Below are positions 8,821-63,620 of a DNA stretch of 64,000 nt, in pieces; position 1 is the stretch's first letter, and every line of letters starts with the position of its first letter. Both the position numbers and the translations under genes were made by a program. The notes beneath the pieces are model-generated. The model made no database searches. It was not told where the DNA came from and saw only the letters and a list, made by a program, of their open reading frames with translations. The stretch comes from a virus: positions 19,455 to 83,454 of the IMG/VR virus record IMGVR_UViG_3300048672_000219; one strand, written 5' to 3'.

Positions 8821-9843
8821 TTATAGTTTTTCATTCATTTCCTCTAAAATAAGTTGTTTCTCAATAAATTCTATCACATCTAAGTAGTTATGGTAGTACG
8901 TCGCCTCTGTTTTAAATCCAGATATTTTCTGAGGGTGTAAAACAAAAGTTTTCTTGAGTTTCCTTTCTATTTCAAAAGCAGTATTACCACCCATTTCAAA
9001 AGTTATAAGTTCATCTACAATACAGCCAACGTCTTTTAAATTTTTTCTGTGTTCTGCTAGTCTCTGGATGAATTTGTTGGATATACCATACCCTGTAAAT
9101 TCAAAACTTCCGACTATTTTCAAAACATACACCACGGCAGATTTTTCTCTGTGAAATCCTGCTGGGCTAGGGCATCTGCAAGGTTTTCGACCTTTTCTTA
9201 GATTTGAAGTAGTGGATTTAAAAATTCCAGAGCATTTTCCAGATGTGACTAACTCATCACAACTACAGATCGGGCAAATTACATCCCAAAGACATCTTCC
9301 TGAAACATTATAAGTTTCCTCTCGGCGTTTGAATTTCCAACCGTCTGAGAACAAACCTTTAGATAGGAGTTTATTTGTAAAATCTTCATCACTCATTCTC
9401 CACGAATTAGCTTTTATTGCAATTTTACATTTAGGGCAACCATTTTTATTTTTGATAAAGCACGTGACACTAGTAGAGTCCCAGACATGACCATCTTTTA
9501 AGCATTTCAAAATTATTTTGTCTTTGGCTCTTACTTTAACATCATTGTTTTTGTATCCAATGAAGTCATAATTCTTTTCTTCACATAATCTTTTTATTAC
9601 AATACTGCATTGTTCTTTTGTTTTGCTATATGTATTTGAGCAGGCGCAAGGGATATGTCCAGATTTCAAAGACGATGCCGCTATTTCAAACTCACCATTT
9701 CCGTATAGCTCTTGATCTTTGCAGCAGATGTGACACTTCACTATGCAGTATTTTGTTGATTTGTTTTTTAAGAAGATATTTAAAACTTCTAAGTGATTCA
9801 TTTCACCAAATGAATCTCCAATTTCTACAGAACTTTTCTTCAC
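8821..9843 (-). CDS. putative homing endonuclease (Cys-rich repeats plus C-terminal GIY-YIG-like domain)
   Basis: Repeated CxxC...PCxC units; C-terminal VYVLK...GYGISN...RLAEH...FEIERKLK...GFKTE. Confidence 0.7.
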   Translation of the reverse strand: MKKSSVEIGDSFGEMNHLEVLNIFLKNKSTKYCIVKCHICCKDQELYGNGEFEIAASSLKSGHIPCACSNTYSKTKEQCSIVIKRLCEEKNYDFIGYKNNDVKVRAKDKIILKCLKDGHVWDSTSVTCFIKNKNGCPKCKIAIKANSWRMSDEDFTNKLLSKGLFSDGWKFKRREETYNVSGRCLWDVICPICSCDELVTSGKCSGIFKSTTSNLRKGRKPCRCPSPAGFHREKSAVVYVLKIVGSFEFTGYGISNKFIQRLAEHRKNLKDVGCIVDELITFEMGGNTAFEIERKLKKTFVLHPQKISGFKTEATYYHNYLDVIEFIEKQLILEEMNEKL

Positions 9844-28957: not shown

Positions 28958-29658
28958 TGAATGAGCATTATGTGTATATGGTAAAACTCGGTGATGAGGT
29001 TGTGTACGTCGGAAGTGGAAAAGGTGATAGGTACAAGCATGTAACCAGCGGTAGAAGTCACAACGAATCTTTGAACTTATTACATAGGCAAGGTATTGCT
29101 GTTGTGCAAGAGTTTGAATATGAGGGCTTAACTGAGATGACAGCTAGAGTGCTAGAGCAAGAGTTAATCGACAAGTACAAACCTCTGTACAATAAAGGTA
29201 AGGCAGCGAACGAGGAAAAGAAAGCTTTACACAAAGAACTTAGTGACGAACTTAAAAGAATCCGTGAGAGTGCCCAGCCTACGGAGTATGCCAGATACAT
29301 GGCTAAAGCTTTGTTTGCATTGTGGAAAGCTACCGGAAACTATCATATCTTGCAAGCATCTTTCGCAGTATCAAGAGCTAACCCAGATTCTAAGATAGTG
29401 ATTACCCAGAATGAGCTATCAGAGTTTGTCAGCAAGTATCAAAATCAATTCAAAGACAAGATGTTCTTTATGCAATGTAAATCCTCTGTCGGTCAAGAAG
29501 TTTCTTATATAACAAGTGTGGATGAAATCTTAGATGAGATCAATAGAGAAGAATCAGCGCAAATAAACTTTATGCACAGACAAGCAAAGAATTTTAACGA
29601 TTTTGTGCGGTTACAAAATAAAGCTTTGTCTTTGCGCGGGCAGGGTGTACTATTCTAA
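28958..29658 (+). CDS. GIY-YIG domain protein
   Basis: HYVYMVK...VYVGSGK..RY.H...GRSHN...LEQELIDKYKPLYN; likely start at MNEHY within ORF 28870-29658. Confidence 0.75.
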
Positions 29659-30525
29659 GTATGCTTAACTTTTAAAGGAGAAACACAATGCAAATAATGC
29701 TAAATGACGAGCAAGCCGACCAGTTCATGGCTCAAATGCTAATGAATGATTACCAGTCAATCAAGAATGGCGAGTGGTCGGAAGATTGCAAGCGCTTCCT
29801 ACCAGCATACGAACTGTTGTTCGAGTCCTATCTAACTCAAAAGCAGATATGGGAAATTAAACAATGATTATCGGCAAAACAGATCAACAGATACACGAAG
29901 CCCGTCAGAAACGATTAGAGCGCTTATACAAGCAAGATAAGCGGGTGTTCCTATGGTGGCCTAGAAAGCTAATAGACGGGCGTATAGCGTGGCTAGAATG
30001 GGCTGAGAAAGACTACATGGTGATTGAAAATGCCTAGATTAGCTGTGCAGCTAATAAGCCCATAATAGCTAATGCACGCTGTTGCTAAAATGAGACAGAC
30101 AACTAATTTGTATGTTTTGTGCAAATAGGGCTTGCATTCTGCTCTGATCGGTGTAGAATAGAACTTATTCGATAACGCAACGGAGCAAATATTATGAGTG
30201 CATGGAATTTGGGTTACAAGGAAGCAATGAATGATTGTGGATCAATCTACAACAATCCTTTCAAGTACGGTGAAAGTGGCTATGCTGATTGGATAGCAGG
30301 CTATGAAGCACGAATTATTGAAGAAACCGAACGGATGGGTGCATAATTATGAAAACCTTCTCTTTCGATACCTTCGCAGCTAACGGCAAATTCCTGAAAG
30401 TGGTTCGCGTAGAAGCCGCTCTCCGTTCGGAAGCTAAAGCAATTGCAGGGGCAATGGACGGTGTTGCTAAGGCTGTATGCACTAGCGTTGCTTAATGAGT
30501 TACAGGCCACAAGCGGGACATGTGA

Positions 30526-30550
30526 CGCCACCTTCGGGTGGCTTTGTTGT
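30526..30550 (+). terminator. intrinsic terminator ending the early block
   Basis: GCCACC-TTCG-GGTGGC followed by TTTGTTGTTT. Confidence 0.8.
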
Positions 30551-30570
30551 TTGTGCGGTATGTATCTAAA

Positions 30571-30656
30571 TAAGAACTATTCTCATCTACTATCAGTATT
30601 CTATATGAGAATCATTCTCAATACGCTGCTGTAATCCTTAATAAGAACTATTCTCA
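30571..30656. promoter_or_regulatory. three Fur-box-like 7-1-7 sites
   Basis: TAAGAAC-T-ATTCTCA (30571), TGAGAAT-C-ATTCTCA (30606, perfect palindrome), TAAGAAC-T-ATTCTCA (30642), versus Fur consensus TGATAAT-N-ATTATCA. Confidence 0.65.
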
Positions 30657-31370
30657 ATTGGCAGTCTGTTACACATCCACTCGCCTCCCTTCTTACCTTC
30701 CCCGATCTGTCCTCCAAAAGTCATCTCGACAATGCCTCTTCGCCAGTGCCAGAATCCTTATTTAGAATGAACGTTCAGTCTTAGTAGACCAGTCGTCTAC
30801 AACAAGCCAGCAATTATCCGCAGCGAACATACGAGCATAGCGAGTAGACCCTTGCCAATGACAGATTTCCAGCAGCATGGGAACGTGGATAGGAAGCGAA
30901 TACAAGCCGCTGGTGAGGATTTTGCAGAGGTGGCAATGGGGGTGGTAGCGTGGAGGGTGGATAGGGGCTGTAACGGCTCATTTTCAGGAAGCCGAGATAT
31001 CATGCTGGTGAATGGGGAATTGAGTGTAAAAAGGCGCTAAAGTGAAAATCCTTATCAACGATTGGCCTTTAGATGTAGCGGGTTTGCGACAGAAATACCC
31101 TATCAAAAGTGATTTTGAGGGCAATATCAAATATTTTGTTGACAGAGTGATCGGGATGTGGTATGATAGGGGCGTGGTTACACAACACTCGCGTTACTGG
31201 CTCATTAGATATTCTTATCAAACATACAATAAATATTTGCCATAAAGTGACTTCCAGAAAAAATTATTTTTAAAAATTTGAGAAAATATTTTAGAAAACT
31301 CTTGCGCATAAAATAGCAGTGATATATAATGTCTATATTAGTTGGAAATTATTCTGCAAAGGAGGATGAA

Positions 31371-32030
31371 ATGAAGAAACTTATAGGCTACTGTAGGGTC
31401 TCCACGGAACGTCAATCGAACGTCCGAAACGGTCTTTTAGCGCAGCGAGAAGAGATTTTAAGGTTCGCAAAGACGCACGGATACGAGGTCATAAGTATCG
31501 TTGAAGAGTCAATTTCGGGTAAATATGGTCTGGAATACCGCCCTATTTTGTCCGAAGCAATTGAACAAGCAAACAAGATTGGAGCAACAATTGTTGTCTC
31601 AAAACTTGATCGTTTTAGCCGTGATGCTTTGTTCGTAATGCAGCTTATGAAAACGAAATTGAAGTTTGTTGTGGCAGAGTTGGGAGAGGAAATCACGCCG
31701 TTCATGTTGCATATTTATTGTGTCTGTGCAGAACAAGAACGGGTGGTTATTGGCAAACGTACAAAAGCCGGACTTGAGCAAGTAAAAGCCAAGGGTGTGG
31801 TTCTGGGCAATAAAAAGAATCTCGATGTTGCTGGAAAGAAAGGCGCAGTGGCTACAGCGGTGATGGCAGACAAGTTTGCAGACATTATGAAACCAATTGC
31901 AAAGCCTATGTTGGAGTCTGGTATGTCCCTTCGTGCTGTAGCAAAAGCACTAAATGATAAGGAAGTTAAAACTGCACGTGGTGGGGTGTGGACTGCTCAG
32001 ACTGTAGCCAACATCCGGTCTCGGTGGTAA
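31371..32030 (+). CDS. serine recombinase (resolvase/invertase catalytic domain plus C-terminal recombinase DNA-binding domain)
   Basis: GYCRVSTERQ with catalytic Ser; IVVSKLDRFSR; AEQERVVIGKRTKAGL alphaE helix; SLRAVAKALN...TARGGVW; GGAGG RBS; promoter TTGCGC-17-TATAAT at 31302-31330. Confidence 0.93.
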   Translation: MKKLIGYCRVSTERQSNVRNGLLAQREEILRFAKTHGYEVISIVEESISGKYGLEYRPILSEAIEQANKIGATIVVSKLDRFSRDALFVMQLMKTKLKFVVAELGEEITPFMLHIYCVCAEQERVVIGKRTKAGLEQVKAKGVVLGNKKNLDVAGKKGAVATAVMADKFADIMKPIAKPMLESGMSLRAVAKALNDKEVKTARGGVWTAQTVANIRSRW

Positions 32031-32085: not shown

Positions 32086-32547
32086 TTAACTATTTAACAG
32101 TATGTCATCAATAGTCTTCAATGTATTTGAAACAGACTTAGCATACCATTTCTTACCTCTGGCTGTTTTCACTTCCATCTCATTTAGGTAATCAGCTATT
32201 TCTCTATAGACCAAACCCATTTCACGCATTGGTATAAGATATAGTGATACACTTTTTGCAAAATCTACTTTCTCTTTCTGTATCTGAGCATTTGCCAATT
32301 CTCTAGCTTTTTCTCCATGCAGAGAAATTTTAGGATTCGCCATACCGTGAAGTTTTCCTTGAGACTTAGCTCTTGCAAACCCTTCTTTAGTCAATTGCGC
32401 ATGGTTGTCTCTTCGTTTCCATCCACCATCATGTACTTTGTTATGGCACTCACCACACAGAGGTATCGTCCTAGTCCCTCCCATACTTTTAGGAATTACA
32501 TGGTGGTCTTCTGTAGCAGGTTTATCACATTCAAAACAATAGTTCAT
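32086..32547 (-). CDS. HNH endonuclease fused to a serine-recombinase-type alphaE helix and DNA-binding domain
   Basis: CFEC...HHVIPKSMGG...LCGECHNKVH HNH motif; LTKEGFARAKSQGKLHG; YREIADYLN...KTARGKKW. Confidence 0.8.
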   Translation of the reverse strand: MNYCFECDKPATEDHHVIPKSMGGTRTIPLCGECHNKVHDGGWKRRDNHAQLTKEGFARAKSQGKLHGMANPKISLHGEKARELANAQIQKEKVDFAKSVSLYLIPMREMGLVYREIADYLNEMEVKTARGKKWYAKSVSNTLKTIDDILLNS

Positions 32548-32593: not shown

Positions 32594-32821
32594 TTACATT
32601 TTTCTTACTTTAGAAATCAAGTCTTGCAACTGAGCAATTACTTCTTTCTTGAATTCCACTTTAAACTCATCTCGTTTAATACTTCCTTTCTCTACATTCC
32701 GAAGCTCCTTAGAACACCATGCAACACTACAACCTAGTTGTTGGGATATTTCTGCAAAGGACATGCCCTCTTGTCGCATTCGTTTTGCTTCCTCAATATC
32801 AAATTTTCGTACATTAGTCAT
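32594..32821 (-). CDS. helix-turn-helix DNA-binding protein
   Basis: MRQEGMSFAEISQQLGCSVAWCSKEL; own promoter TTGACA-17-TATAAT at 32877-32849. Confidence 0.8.
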   Translation of the reverse strand: MTNVRKFDIEEAKRMRQEGMSFAEISQQLGCSVAWCSKELRNVEKGSIKRDEFKVEFKKEVIAQLQDLISKVRKM

Positions 32822-62794: not shown

Positions 62795-63078
62795 TGAAAA
62801 CAATACGACTACTCTCAATATGGGCAGTTTGTATTGTAGCATCCTTTCTAGCTTTAGGGAGGATGTTCTTTGCAATCTTCCTAAGCCCTGATAAGGCATG
62901 GCGAATATCAGTGGCAACAGACAGGCAAGCTAATGTTGCATTCAATGGCAACGAAAAGGAAACCATCAGTTCTCGTGCCTACAGAGGTACGAAAGAGGGA
63001 CGAACAGGGTGGTGTATATTATGTAAATTCCTCAATCTACTTGATAGAGGTCATTGCGAGAAATCAGAGGGTGTATAA
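62794..63078 (+). CDS. small membrane-anchored phage protein
   Basis: N-terminal TM segment; DRQANV.FNG...ETISSR...LD.GHC. Confidence 0.6.
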   Translation: MKTIRLLSIWAVCIVASFLALGRMFFAIFLSPDKAWRISVATDRQANVAFNGNEKETISSRAYRGTKEGRTGWCILCKFLNLLDRGHCEKSEGV

Positions 63079-63080
63079 TT

Positions 63081-63620
63081 ATGAAAATTGAAATGCAACA
63101 ATTGAATGCCGACAAATATAAAATGGCTGTAGAGAATATGGATGAGTCTCCCGAAGAAGAGGCTATGGAAACTCCTGCTGAAGAAATGAGTGAGTTTGAA
63201 GAGACAATCAAAGCAGCTTTTGCAACAACATTCTCTTTCTATTTAAAAGCACACAACTTCCATTGGAATGTGGAAGATAAAGACTTCTTTGAATATCATG
63301 GACTATTCGGCTCCATCTACGAAGAAGTCTACTCGTCTATCGACTCGTTTGCAGAAAAGATTCGTGCATGTCAAATCAAAGTTCCTGCAAGCTTGTCATC
63401 ATTCAATCTTCTGTCTGTTGTGGCTGATGAGAATTCTTTCCCAAGTAAAGATGTAATGGTGGATACTCTTCTGAACGACAATGAAACTGTTCTAAAAATC
63501 CTTGGCCTTGCCTACGACGAAGCAGAAGAACTTGGCTATCATGGCTTTAGTAACTTCCTTGCAGAGCGCTTAGACGCACATAAGAAACATAGCTGGATGC
63601 TGCGCTCAAGTAAAGGATAA
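63081..63620 (+). CDS. dps: Dps/ferritin-like protein
   Basis: KAHNFHWNV...F...HGLF...YEE....DSFAEKIR ferroxidase centre; HKKHSWMLRS end. Confidence 0.92.
   Translation: MKIEMQQLNADKYKMAVENMDESPEEEAMETPAEEMSEFEETIKAAFATTFSFYLKAHNFHWNVEDKDFFEYHGLFGSIYEEVYSSIDSFAEKIRACQIKVPASLSSFNLLSVVADENSFPSKDVMVDTLLNDNETVLKILGLAYDEAEELGYHGFSNFLAERLDAHKKHSWMLRSSKG

What the first reader, a model, noticed from the sequence alone, without database searches (positions are those of the whole stretch)
30568..30660. Evenly spaced triple Fur-box-like array in non-coding phage DNA, in a phage that also encodes Dps
Seen: three 15-bp sites at 30571, 30606 and 30642 (spacing 35 and 36 bp). The middle one is a perfect 7-1-7 palindrome TGAGAAT-C-ATTCTCA; the outer two are identical TAAGAAC-T-ATTCTCA. 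They sit just after a terminator with no convincing gene or promoter beside them. Known: Fur binds 7-1-7 TGATAAT-N-ATTATCA, and multicopy Fur boxes titrate Fur and derepress iron uptake. Inference: as the genome replicates this could act as a DNA sponge for Fur, raising iron import while phage Dps (63081-63620) buffers the iron. Alternative: these are accessory sites for the serine recombinase about 700 bp away.
Basis: partly seen in the sequence, partly recalled or inferred. Interest (0 to 1): 0.85.

Follow-up and report, generated by a model that had tools for sequence, protein, structure and literature searches.

The report
Host Fur-box array in phage DNA
Three evenly spaced sites in a gene-free stretch of an uncultured freshwater phage match the DNA site that bacteria use to bind their iron sensor Fur, a layout that recurs in many unrelated phages including T5, so the phage probably docks the host's iron sensor on its own DNA for a purpose not yet tested.

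Summary
There are three 15-bp sites at 30571, 30606 and 30642 (spacing 35 and 36 bp). They are the only such sites in the 83-kb phage genome (4 exact pattern matches against 0.00 in shuffles).

The middle site is identical to published Fur boxes. All three fit the Xanthomonas Fur consensus as well as proven sites do. The same two-box pattern gave:
- 75 viral contigs, against 0 for a scrambled control;
- at least 120 bacterial loci, where it sits before metal-uptake genes.

I found no Fur gene and no shared phage protein in the array-bearing phages I checked. Host Fur is therefore the likely binder (about 0.65).

The Fur-sponge-plus-Dps reading is not supported by comparison: 0 of 45 other array-bearing phage records encode a ferritin or Dps. 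The recombinase reading is not supported either.

The array fills a "slot" behind the early-operon terminator, in a non-coding module that relatives also keep. One relative has DnaA boxes in that slot. Phage T5's injection-stop region holds the same kind of boxes beside DnaA boxes. I therefore favour a cis-acting docking array over a trans-acting sponge. Binding is untested.

This scan has already met Fur-box arrays in other phages. I found no paper describing them.

The parts
30527..30552 (+). Intrinsic-terminator-like hairpin (GCCACC-TTCG-GGTGGC) with T-rich tail, ending the rightward operon of small genes
   Evidence: stem 30527-30542, then the tail; relatives have a hairpin plus the TTGTGCG motif at the same place
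30566..30585 (+). Repeat unit 1: CTAAAT + box TAAGAACTATTCTCA (box 30571-30585)
   Evidence: 15 of 18 positions match the Xanthomonas Fur consensus
30601..30620 (+). Repeat unit 2: CTATAT + box TGAGAATCATTCTCA (box 30606-30620), a perfect 7-1-7 palindrome
   Evidence: 16 of 18; it is the reverse complement of the Enterococcus faecalis Fur box listed for EF3082-3085
30637..30656 (+). Repeat unit 3: CTTAAT + box TAAGAACTATTCTCA (box 30642-30656)
   Evidence: 15 of 18
30753..30768 (+). Partial fourth copy of the unit's left part (AATCCTTATTTAGAAT). It overlaps the -10-like TAGAAT of a weak promoter-like site. The palindrome TGAACGTTCA follows it.
   Evidence: D6, 87% over 15 nt; I6; a role is inference only
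30496..31370 (.). 875-bp stretch with no credible gene, the conserved non-coding module next to the recombinase. Order: terminator, repeat slot, ACGT-core palindrome, G-rich part, promoter-like site, AT-rich part.
   Evidence: (the 67-aa ORF has no homologue and is not on record as a called protein)
31139..31167 (+). Strong sigma-70-like site (TTGACA-17-TATGAT with TG). No called gene lies behind it; an AT-rich stretch (about 31255-31300) follows.
   Evidence: 11 of 12
31371..32030 (+). Small serine recombinase (219 aa from ATG 31371). An AGGAGG lies 5 nt upstream. TTGCGC-17-TATAAT at 31302-31330 was read by eye.
   Evidence: homologues in relatives
63054..63620 (+).
   Evidence: PF00210, 57.9 bits; speak against a link

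Best explanation
The three sites are binding sites of the Fur family of bacterial metal-sensing repressors (Fur boxes). The phage has no Fur gene, so the binder would be the host's Fur. My odds that host Fur (or a Fur paralogue) binds here are about 0.65.

The array has no promoter of its own. It sits directly behind the terminator of the early operon, at the entrance of a conserved 0.7-1.3-kb non-coding module that lies next to a small serine recombinase gene in this phage and its relatives. I read it as a cis-acting docking array. Metal-loaded Fur dimers occupy three sites about 3.4 helical turns apart. They would form a protein block or scaffold on this control region, acting as an insulator or roadblock behind the terminator, or as an architectural input to an origin-like or entry-control region. 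That would make the region's state depend on the cell's iron status.

Given Fur binding, I put cis action at about 2:1 over a trans-acting sponge.

Shown:
- the sites, their uniqueness in the genome and their identity with known Fur boxes;
- the recurrence of such arrays in many phages;
- the conserved slot in relatives.

Inferred:
- that Fur binds here;
- what the binding does.
For: 1. Identity with known Fur boxes. AATGAgAATcATTctCATT is the Fur-box consensus derived for 9 Fur-repressed Xanthomonas campestris genes, whose own sites match it at 15-17 of 19 in the rows I saw (PMC1790865, passages). TGAGAATGATTCTCA and TGAGAACGATTCTCA are listed as the Fur boxes of operons that go up in an E. 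faecalis fur mutant (PMC6056675, table passage). Our sites score 15, 16 and 15 of 18.

2. The same pattern in bacteria. I took the 123 ORFs that start within 400 bp of the boxes and face them. Pfam found DUF6662 in 23, QSregVF_b in 18, ZnuA in 10, TonB-dependent receptor barrel in 9, Plug in 9, DUF2325 in 9, FTR1 in 4, ZIP in 2 and FUR in 2. These are largely metal-uptake genes.

3. Recurrence in viruses. The pattern hits 75 IMG/VR loci, against 0 for a scrambled palindrome of like composition. The arrays have 2-6 boxes in the locus listing, and up to 10 per record in two nearby clusters. The DNA ranges from 26% to 67% GC. Nearly all the arrays are intergenic: 13 of 75 lie inside an ORF called by my simple rule, twelve of these of 83-153 aa and one of 312 aa.

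4. No shared phage protein. No ORF family occurs in more than 18 of the 75 loci. Among 13 near-complete array-bearing genomes plus ours, the 12 most widespread families each cover at most 7 of 14 genomes, and none of the 12 includes ours. No FUR-family gene is found in 0 of 45 array-bearing records or in our genome.

5. Cis role, from relatives. Relatives found through PhoH (64-76% identity) keep the recombinase and a neighbouring non-coding module. Behind the same terminator/TTGTGCG landmark they carry other short repeats. L076 and L078 have two copies of TAATnGGGACAGAGTG, 31 bp apart. L079 has GAGTGAGAATCACTC, whose left half is a Fur half-site. L080 has TGTGGATAA-ccc-TGTGTATAA, two DnaA-box matches 3 nt apart.

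6. Cis role, from cultured phages. In T5 the annotated direct repeats C and palindromes E, G and I at 9468-9637 are boxes of this kind (TGAGAATCATTATCA and others). They lie beside DnaA-box pairs. In another T5 record (AY692264) the annotated feature 'injection stop signal' lies under the matching stretch. Exact generic boxes occur only in T5's terminal repeats. Klebsiella phage vB_Kpn_3 has three boxes 35 and 35 bp apart, the middle one perfect and the outer two identical to each other, which is the layout seen here. Phapecoctavirus tuntematon has four boxes at 29-bp steps in an 800-bp gene-free stretch.

7. Architecture differs from bacterial operators.
- Median ORF-free gap: 376 bp in phages, 154 bp in bacteria.
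- Median distance to the nearest facing gene start: 96 bp against 33 bp.
- Three or more boxes: 18 of 50 against 2 of 71.
- Both boxes full 15-mers: 59 of 83 against 50 of 123.
Against: - No binding experiment exists, and the host is unknown; the source is a freshwater metagenome.
- The two outer sites differ from the Fur consensus at two of the 14 symmetric positions: A for G at position 2, and C for T at position 7. Position 2 is, from memory, a base that Fur contacts.
- The repeated unit is an asymmetric 20-mer. A symmetric dimer does not need the extra CTWWAT.
- The slot holds a different motif in each relative. That is also what iterons of a co-evolving phage protein would look like.
- The five relatives have no such array in the 10-kb flanks or in their whole records: only single hits with 1-2 mismatches, as many as the control pattern gives. 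So the array is not conserved in this lineage.
- DnaA boxes are not enriched near our array (80 matches in the window against 83 expected), so the T5 parallel is partial.
- I could name no target that the block would act on. The promoter-like sites 70-110 bp downstream are weak.
- An earlier case of this scan was later given low odds for its bold reading (e1-266660).
Confidence: 0.45

Rival explanations
1. Trans-acting Fur sponge. As the genome replicates, the boxes soak up host Fur, derepress iron uptake, and the phage Dps buffers the iron.
For: The boxes match Fur sites. No promoter overlaps them. In the viral set, arrays often look like tandem duplications of one unit (L004 four copies of 43 bp, L012 five of 22 bp, L019 three of 30 bp, L052 five of 37-38 bp). 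Their boxes are nearer the consensus than bacterial ones (59 of 83 against 50 of 123), as selection for copy number and affinity would give. Within this lineage, our phage alone has both the array and a dps gene. Multicopy Fur boxes do titrate Fur in the Fur titration assay (recalled, not looked up).
Against: Only three sites per genome, two of them off consensus. None of 45 other array-bearing records has a ferritin/Dps gene, so there is no general link with dps. No Fur-like box lies near the phage's dps. The array sits in a slot that relatives fill with other motifs. In T5-like phages the boxes lie at a fixed place in a region known as a cis-acting site. Titration would peak late in infection, when new host transcription is of doubtful use; that last point is inference.
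Confidence: 0.2
2. Iterons or operators for a phage-encoded DNA-binding protein, for example the initiator of an origin in this non-coding module. Their likeness to Fur boxes would be coincidence or mimicry.
For: The unit is a 20-nt direct repeat in three copies at regular spacing. The slot's motif changes between relatives, as iteron/initiator pairs do. The module has origin-like traits: a strong promoter-like site without a gene, followed by an AT-rich stretch. Small HTH genes are nearby (32594-32821).
Against: The motif is the Fur consensus, not merely a palindrome. It recurs in at least seven unrelated phage lineages with no shared protein. The slot of relative L080 holds host DnaA-box matches, so host-factor sites do occupy this slot. 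I found no candidate cognate protein. DnaA boxes are not enriched beside our array.
Confidence: 0.2
3. Accessory (res-like) sites for the serine recombinase encoded 715 bp downstream.
For: Three dyad sites near a resolvase-type gene recall the three subsites of Tn3/gamma-delta res (recalled). The non-coding module and the recombinase travel together in relatives, and the recombinase gene is inverted in some of them.
Against: The dyads are 15 bp. From memory, resolvase dimers need about 25-34 bp with outer 12-bp motifs. The array is at the far end of the module, 715 bp from the gene. Relatives L076, L078 and L079 keep the recombinase (43-53% identity) without these boxes; L077's contig ends inside the gene, so its slot was not seen. 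Only 1 of 80 array-facing genes in the viral loci has a resolvase domain. A BLAST of our recombinase against all ORFs around the 75 arrays found only a 74-residue fragment 3.8 kb from one array.
Confidence: 0.05
4. A relic without function: a captured piece of a host Fur-regulated promoter, or a chance duplication.
For: The array is absent from five relatives. Contigs of another run match both flanks (30120-30486 and 30785-31858), and one runs on into unlike sequence after 30486, so the segment is variable.
Against: Bacterial pairs picked by the same pattern are mostly 27-31 bp apart and about 20-80 bp before a gene. Here three units stand at 35-36 bp with no gene. The outer two boxes are identical over 17 nt (AATAAGAACTATTCTCA). 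A 187-nt contig from an unrelated wastewater run carries the array with one difference. The same layout occurs in vB_Kpn_3.
Confidence: 0.07

Closest known systems
Bacterial Fur boxes (7-1-7 / 19-bp operators of Fur-family repressors), e.g. the Xanthomonas campestris consensus AATGAgAATcATTctCATT and the Enterococcus faecalis boxes TGAGAAYGATTCTCA
   Same: Same sequence. The middle site is identical to a listed E. faecalis box (as its reverse complement) and matches the Xanthomonas consensus at 16 of 18. The outer sites match at 15 of 18, within the 15-17 of 19 of the proven Xanthomonas sites I saw.
   Different: Bacterial boxes overlap the promoter of a metal-uptake gene (median 33 bp to the gene start). 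This array has no promoter and no gene. It has three regularly spaced copies and lies in a virus that has no Fur.
Phage T5 'Repeat Region 3' (the stretch annotated as injection stop signal in AY692264): direct repeats C1-C4 with palindromes E, G and I; and the same region in T5-like phages such as Klebsiella phage vB_Kpn_3
   Same: Gene-free DNA of a virulent phage holds an array of the same boxes: T5 at 9475, 9579 and 9614; vB_Kpn_3 has three boxes at 35 and 35 bp with the middle one perfect. Host DnaA-box pairs stand beside them. A relative of our phage has DnaA-box matches in the very slot that our array fills.
   Different: T5's region lies in the terminal repeat and is tied to two-step DNA entry. 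The ends of our phage's genome are unknown. DnaA boxes are not enriched near our array. The phage belongs to another group: its portal is about 40% identical to those of Pseudomonas PAK_P-like and related myoviruses. The papers I read give the T5 palindromes no function and do not mention Fur (Davison preprint 10.1101/866236, abstract and passages; PMC10644984, passages).
Fur boxes before phage-borne cargo genes (sitABCD of lambdoid coliphages; stx1, recalled)
   Same: A host Fur site carried on phage DNA (PMC6969025, passage).
   Different: There a single box regulates an adjacent iron or toxin gene in a prophage. Here an array stands without a gene, in a phage that shows no sign of lysogeny beyond a small serine recombinase.
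Titration of regulators by site clusters: the Fur titration assay with multicopy Fur boxes, and the datA DnaA-box locus of E. coli (both recalled, not looked up)
   Same: Clusters of sites without a promoter can act by binding the regulator away from its targets.
   Different: Those cases rely on many copies or on special activity of the locus. Three sites per phage genome is few, and nothing here shows titration.
res sites of Tn3/gamma-delta-type resolvases (recalled)
   Same: Three dyad-symmetric subsites near a serine recombinase gene.
   Different: Site length, distance from the gene and comparative distribution do not fit.

Membership tests
Fur box (operator of a Fur-family repressor) | A 7-1-7 inverted repeat of the type TGAnAAT-N-ATTnTCA, or the 19-bp extended palindrome | tested here: met
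   All three sites fit T[GA]AnAA[CT]n[AG]TTnT[CT]A exactly and are the only exact fits in 83 kb. They match the Xanthomonas consensus at 15, 16 and 15 of 18. The middle site equals a published E. faecalis box.
Fur box (operator of a Fur-family repressor) | The same sequence marks metal-homeostasis genes in bacteria | tested here: met
   Of 123 ORFs next to the same two-box pattern in bacterial genomes: ZnuA 10, TonB-dependent receptor 9, Plug 9, FTR1 4, ZIP 2, FUR 2, plus DUF6662 23, QSregVF_b 18 and DUF2325 9.
Fur box (operator of a Fur-family repressor) | Overlaps the promoter of a regulated gene | tested here: not met
   No promoter-like site overlaps the array (and reading both strands by eye). 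The nearest called gene start is 715 bp away.
Fur box (operator of a Fur-family repressor) | Bound by metal-loaded Fur | not testable with these tools
   Needs EMSA, footprinting or ChIP. The host is unknown.
Promoter-less Fur-box array of phage non-coding hubs (T5 injection-stop type) | Two or more near-consensus boxes at regular spacing in a long gene-free stretch of a phage | tested here: met
   Three boxes at 35 and 36 bp in an 875-bp gene-free stretch. Compare vB_Kpn_3 at 35 and 35 bp, T5 at 35 bp and tuntematon at 29-bp steps, and the 75 IMG/VR loci.
Promoter-less Fur-box array of phage non-coding hubs (T5 injection-stop type) | DnaA-box pairs beside the boxes; location in a terminal repeat | tested here: inconclusive
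   There is no DnaA-box cluster near our array, but relative L080 has one in the same slot. The genome ends are unknown: the record is linear with no end repeats found.
Tn3/gamma-delta-type res site | Three subsites, each an inverted pair of the resolvase's roughly 12-bp motif, next to the resolvase gene; found wherever the recombinase is | tested here: not met
   The dyads are 15 bp and lie 715 bp from the gene. Relatives with the recombinase lack them. Arrays elsewhere lack a recombinase. The res dimensions are recalled.
Iteron-type replication origin | Three or more direct repeats, an adjacent AT-rich unwinding stretch, and a cognate initiator gene | tested here: inconclusive
   Direct repeats are present. 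The AT-rich stretch is 600 bp away. No initiator candidate was identified. The slot motif varies among relatives.

The most novel reading that the evidence does not exclude
Promoter-less arrays of consensus Fur boxes are a widespread device of tailed phages, from uncultured freshwater and marine phages to T5 and the rV5/phAPEC8-like coliphages. Through it the phage docks the host's iron sensor, and in neighbouring slots DnaA, on a cis-acting control region. That region would gate an early step such as DNA entry, transcription across a module boundary or origin firing. On this reading, the long-unexplained palindromes of T5's injection stop signal would be Fur sites, and our array would be the same device in a new lineage.
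Probability: 0.25. Interest if true: 0.9.

Novelty: new variant of a known kind. Interest (0 to 1): 0.7.

Why it matters
Fur boxes are textbook bacterial operators. On phage DNA they are known as single sites before cargo genes. Here they form a regular, promoter-less array in gene-free DNA.

The same kind of array turns up in 75 viral contigs of very different base composition, in phage T5's injection-stop region and in phAPEC8-like coliphages. If host Fur really docks there, many phages read or use the cell's iron sensor directly.

It would also make a question about T5 directly testable: what the repeats and palindromes at its injection stop signal do. The tests are fur mutants and box deletions.

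For this window, the comparison also shows that the array is one interchangeable cassette in a conserved non-coding control module. In a relative the same slot holds DnaA-box matches.

Tried and rejected
DNA relatives. Megablast and blastn of the region against 50,697 phage records found no match. An exact search for the specific two-box form in IMG/VR gave 0. The search for related loci with the recombinase found no relative.

RNA readings.
- Rfam gave no match at E up to 1 in 29500-32000. In the relatives' loci it found only tRNAs and group I introns elsewhere.
- The array region folded as RNA is no more stable than shuffles (z -0.87).
- The relatives' non-coding modules give no consensus structure (-5.41 kcal/mol, with the covariation term unfavourable).
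I dropped the ncRNA idea.

Coding reading. The 67-aa ORF at 31042-31245 has no homologue and is not itself on record as a called protein. Neither it nor the 62-aa ORF at 30852-31040 hits Pfam or PHROGs or the relatives.

A promoter over the array. None was found by the scan or by reading both strands.

DnaA boxes near our array. Not enriched.

Inverted repeats that could flank an invertible recombinase segment. None was found. The only long pair is the shared C-terminal arm of the recombinase and the HNH gene.

Dps link. PF00210 was found in 0 of 50 records: 45 array-bearing plus 5 relatives.

Tyrosine integrase. It scored over the cut-off in 5 of 20 array-bearing records, so the arrays are not a trait of temperate phages only.

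Canonical TGATAAT-type two-box pattern. It gave 74 loci, but by my count's rows 41 of them had no full 7-1-7 box (AT-rich chance hits, many from giant-virus bins). Seventeen had two or more. I use this only as a hint that both box flavours form arrays. L099 and L110 mix the two flavours.

Sequencing runs. No RNA holder is listed. In run X2 the bins 30510-30711 have next to no cover while both flanks are covered.

Literature. None found a paper on Fur-box arrays in phage non-coding DNA, on Fur decoys in phages, or on Fur at the T5 injection stop signal. The library lacks most subscription journals, and supplements were closed, so this is no proof of absence. Supplementary files of the Davison preprint describe further repeats that I could not see.

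Error of mine. In some searches I translated the recombinase from 31372 instead of 31371, which gave garbage, and for a while I wrongly noted that relatives lack the recombinase. correct this.

Tools not used: structure prediction, fold search, complex prediction, the search of protein representatives and the protein-atlas search. None bears on a DNA site.
Full report
THE OBSERVATION. The window is the right-hand 64 kb of an 83,454-bp virus record (window = C1:19455-83454; an IMG/VR record, linear, 97% complete by CheckV). It comes from a freshwater metagenome. The repeat is really a 20-nt unit, CTWWAT plus the box, at 35- and 36-bp steps. Exact matches to TRAGAAYNATTCTCA number 4 (three sites, the palindrome counted on both strands), against 0.00 in 100 shuffles. 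The whole genome has no other site within two mismatches. A generic Fur-family pattern finds only these three exactly; its one-mismatch hits are at background (8 in all against 6.99). A terminator-like hairpin ends 19 bp before the first box. No promoter-like site overlaps the array. The stretch 30496-31370 has no credible gene. The recombinase (219 aa from ATG 31371; PF00239, 86.5 bits) and the Dps gene (PF00210, 57.9 bits) are real.

WHAT THE SITES ARE. A full-text search for the middle site's core found two bacterial papers, both about Fur. AATGAgAATcATTctCATT is the consensus derived from nine Fur-repressed TonB-receptor genes of Xanthomonas campestris, whose own sites match it at 15-17 of 19 in the rows I saw (PMC1790865, passages). 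TGAGAATGATTCTCA and TGAGAACGATTCTCA are listed as the Fur boxes of operons that rise 5- to 18-fold in an Enterococcus faecalis fur mutant (PMC6056675, table passage). Our sites match the Xanthomonas consensus at 15, 16 and 15 of 18.

As an independent check I scanned one genome per prokaryote species for two such boxes 12-30 bp apart. I scanned with Pfam the 123 ORFs that start within 400 bp of the boxes and face them. It found ZnuA-type binding proteins in 10, TonB-dependent receptors in 9, Plug in 9, FTR1 iron permease in 4, ZIP in 2 and FUR itself in 2. It also found three less-known families: DUF6662 in 23, QSregVF_b in 18 and DUF2325 in 9. So this sequence marks metal-uptake genes across phyla. 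It is a Fur-family box, not merely Fur-like.

THE SAME ARRAYS IN OTHER PHAGES. The same two-box pattern hit 75 IMG/VR loci. A scrambled palindrome of like composition hit none. The loci hold clusters of 2-6 boxes of the form aaTGAGAATsATTCTCAtt, some as plain tandem repeats. The DNA ranges from 26% to 67% GC. The arrays lie mostly between genes; divergent flanks are the commonest class (21 of 75). Thirteen of 75 fall inside ORFs called by my simple rule, twelve of them of 83-153 aa and one of 312 aa. In 20 of 20 records checked whole, the boxes (2-10 per record) sit at one to three places, and the control pattern gave 0 in all but one record.

No phage protein goes with the arrays:
- The largest ORF family around them covers 18 of 75 loci.
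- Among 80 genes whose starts face an array, the commonest are large terminases (10-12). Only one has a resolvase domain.
- In an all-against-all comparison of 13 near-complete array-bearing genomes plus ours, the 12 most widespread families each cover at most 7 of 14 genomes, and none of these includes ours.
- No FUR-family gene is found in 0 of 45 array-bearing records or in our genome.
A conserved host protein is the economical binder, and Fur is the protein known to read this sequence.

Phage arrays differ from bacterial operators chosen by the same pattern:
- Median ORF-free gap: 376 bp against 154 bp.
- Median distance to the nearest facing gene start: 96 bp against 33 bp.
- Three or more boxes: 18 of 50 against 2 of 71.
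- Both boxes full 15-mers: 59 of 83 against 50 of 123.

CULTURED PHAGES. A blastn search with one viral array against named phage records led to Klebsiella phage vB_Kpn_3, a T5 relative. It has three boxes 35 and 35 bp apart, the middle one perfect and the outer two identical to each other. They stand next to DnaA-box pairs. That is the layout of our array.

In T5 itself (AY587007) the annotated direct repeats C1-C4 and palindromes E, G and I at 9468-9637 are such boxes: TACGAATCATTATCA at 9475, TGAGAATCATTATCA at 9579 and TGAGATTGATTCTCA at 9614, with half-sites between them. They lie just left of the 7.9% nick. Exact generic boxes occur in T5 only in the terminal repeats, at 233 and 9579 and their right-end copies; the control gave 0. 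In record AY692264 the annotated feature 'injection stop signal' lies under the matching stretch, and 625 phage records match it. Phapecoctavirus tuntematon has four boxes at 29-bp steps in an 800-bp gene-free stretch annotated only as a repeat region.

The Davison preprint on T5 injection (abstract and passages) describes eight DnaA boxes. It says the function of the other repeats and palindromes cannot be guessed, and it does not mention Fur. Nor does the BF23 paper (passages). After this I looked up the scan's own notes. Several earlier agents reported the same thing in rV5-like, phi92-like and T5-like phages, including the T5 link. One such case was later given odds of 88/100 for what was seen and 6/100 for its bold reading.

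RELATIVES OF THIS PHAGE AND THE SLOT. The phage is only distantly related to named phages: its portal is about 40% identical to those of Pseudomonas PAK_P-like and related myoviruses. Five IMG/VR relatives were found through PhoH (64-76% identity). They keep the block PhoH, ClpP-like protein, 201-aa protein, and sometimes HTH and HNH. None has a Fur-like array in the 10-kb flanks or in the whole record; there are only single hits with 1-2 mismatches, as many as the control pattern gives.

I first noted that they also lack the recombinase. That was my error: a mis-framed query. Recombinase homologues are present in L076, L077 (cut by the contig end), L078 and L079 (43-53% identity), and in L080 by Pfam. 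The gene is on the PhoH strand in L076, L077, L079 and L080, and inverted in L078 and in our phage.

In every relative where the contig allows, a 0.7-1.3-kb gene-poor stretch lies between the recombinase and the end of the small-gene operon. Read in the window's direction, it begins with a hairpin terminator and a shared TTGTGCG. A slot of short repeats follows:
- L076 and L078: two copies of TAATnGGGACAGAGTG, 31 bp apart.
- L079: GGAACACTGTTCC and GAGTGAGAATCACTC, whose left half is a Fur half-site.
- L080: TGTGGATAA-ccc-TGTGTATAA, two DnaA-box matches 3 nt apart. That is the pairing Davison describes for T5-like phages.
- Ours: the three Fur boxes.
After the slot come an ACGT-core palindrome, a G-rich part and an AT-rich part. 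In L076 the palindrome is TGTGA-N6-TCACA, the core of a CRP site (recalled).

The module gives no Rfam hit and no consensus RNA fold, so I treat it as a DNA-level control region. A 187-nt contig from a wastewater run carries our array with one difference. Contigs of another aquatic run match both flanks, and one runs on into unlike sequence after 30486. So the slot's content is a variable cassette in a conserved frame.

HOW IT MOST LIKELY WORKS.
Shown:
- The sites are Fur-family boxes by sequence.
- They are unique in the genome and promoter-less.
- They sit in a conserved slot.
- Like arrays recur in many phages with no shared phage protein.
Inferred:
- Host Fur binds them (about 0.65).
- They act in cis.

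I favour cis action for three reasons. The position is conserved while the motif is swapped. A relative has DnaA-box matches in the slot. In T5-like phages the same boxes keep a fixed place and a fixed 35-bp step in a stretch tied to a cis-acting signal. At 35-36 bp (about 3.4 turns) neighbouring dimers face different sides of the helix. That suits a protein-coated block better than a loop.

What the block does is open. Candidates are an insulator behind the terminator, an input to an origin-like element (the strong promoter-like site at 31139-31167 has no gene behind it and is followed by an AT-rich stretch), or control of DNA entry.

The sponge reading keeps about 0.2. It fits the lack of a promoter and, in other phages, the tandem expansion and near-perfect boxes. 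But three sites are few, two of them are off consensus, and the proposed partner Dps is absent from 45 of 45 other array-bearing records. The recombinase reading gets about 0.05, and a phage-protein iteron reading about 0.2.

NOVELTY AND SCORE. Fur boxes are known, and single Fur boxes before phage cargo genes are known (sitABCD, PMC6969025, passage). A regular promoter-less array in gene-free phage DNA is a new variant. I found no paper on it in ten searches of a library that lacks most subscription journals. This scan has met it before in coliphages. This case adds a new phage lineage from fresh water with TGAGAAT-type boxes, a collection-wide count with a control, the bacterial validation, and the slot comparison with DnaA boxes. 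Interest 0.7.

Noticed in passing
L076:15500-16300, L078:12690-13520, L079:15475-16800, L080:15255-16060 (compare window 30496-31370): A conserved gene-poor module next to the serine recombinase in all relatives. Order: hairpin terminator plus TTGTGCG, a slot of short repeats that differs per phage (GGGACAGAGTG repeats, a half Fur-like dyad, DnaA-box pair), an ACGT-core palindrome (TGTGA-N6-TCACA in L076), then a G-rich part and an AT-rich part. No Rfam hit and no consensus RNA fold.
   Followed up: partly
window 31371-32030; L076:14850-15506, L079:14822-15475, L080:14596-15261, L078:12036-12698: The recombinase gene lies on the PhoH strand in L076, L077, L079 and L080, but is inverted in L078 and in this phage, where an HNH gene faces it. 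I found no flanking inverted repeats in the window apart from the shared C-terminal arm of the two genes.
   Followed up: partly
L322 (T5, AY587007) record 233-247 and 9468-9637, with right-end copies: T5's exact generic Fur-type boxes occur only in its terminal repeats. The annotated direct repeats C and palindromes E, G and I, in the stretch that record AY692264 annotates as the injection stop signal, are such boxes. A perfect TGATAATCATTATCA sits 233 bp from the left end.
   Followed up: partly
L321 (Klebsiella phage vB_Kpn_3) locus 1503-1587; L323 (Escherichia phage tuntematon) locus 1149-1250: vB_Kpn_3 has three boxes at 35 and 35 bp beside DnaA-box pairs. Tuntematon has four boxes at exact 29-bp steps in an 800-bp gene-free 'repeat_region'. 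Pectobacterium phage phiTE (4 boxes within 1 mismatch) and Cronobacter phage GAP31 (2 boxes 29 bp apart) have clusters too.
   Followed up: partly
G009, G020, G025, G031, G035, G046 (IMG/VR records behind L007, L020, L028, L037, L047, L071): In one lineage of related phages the arrays keep two syntenic places. In three of them (G009, G031, G046) one is just upstream of the small and large (GpA-like) terminase genes, where a cos site would be expected. The other, in all six, lies within about 1.3 kb (mostly under 250 bp) downstream of one conserved 250-280-aa gene.
   Followed up: partly
window 31139-31300: A near-consensus sigma-70-like site (TTGACA-17-TATGAT with TG) has no called gene behind it and is followed by a very AT-rich stretch. 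This is an origin-like or leader-like arrangement upstream of the recombinase's own promoter-like site.
   Followed up: no
window 31043-31057: TGAAAATCCTTATCA is a one-mismatch fit to the generic Fur-family pattern, 390 bp downstream of the array. It is within the chance expectation.
   Followed up: no
L076:6606-6823 and L079:5174-5393: Rfam finds group I introns in two relatives, on the side of PhoH where this phage has its terminase region.
   Followed up: no
window 31950-32005 and 32132-32187: The C-terminal parts of the recombinase and of the convergent HNH protein are paralogous (36.7% over 90 aa; 56-nt inverted DNA repeat at 71%).
   Followed up: partly
L099 and L110 (IMG/VR): Arrays that mix GATAAT-type and GAGAAT-type boxes in DNA of 56-57% GC. 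This ties the two box flavours to one kind of site.
   Followed up: no
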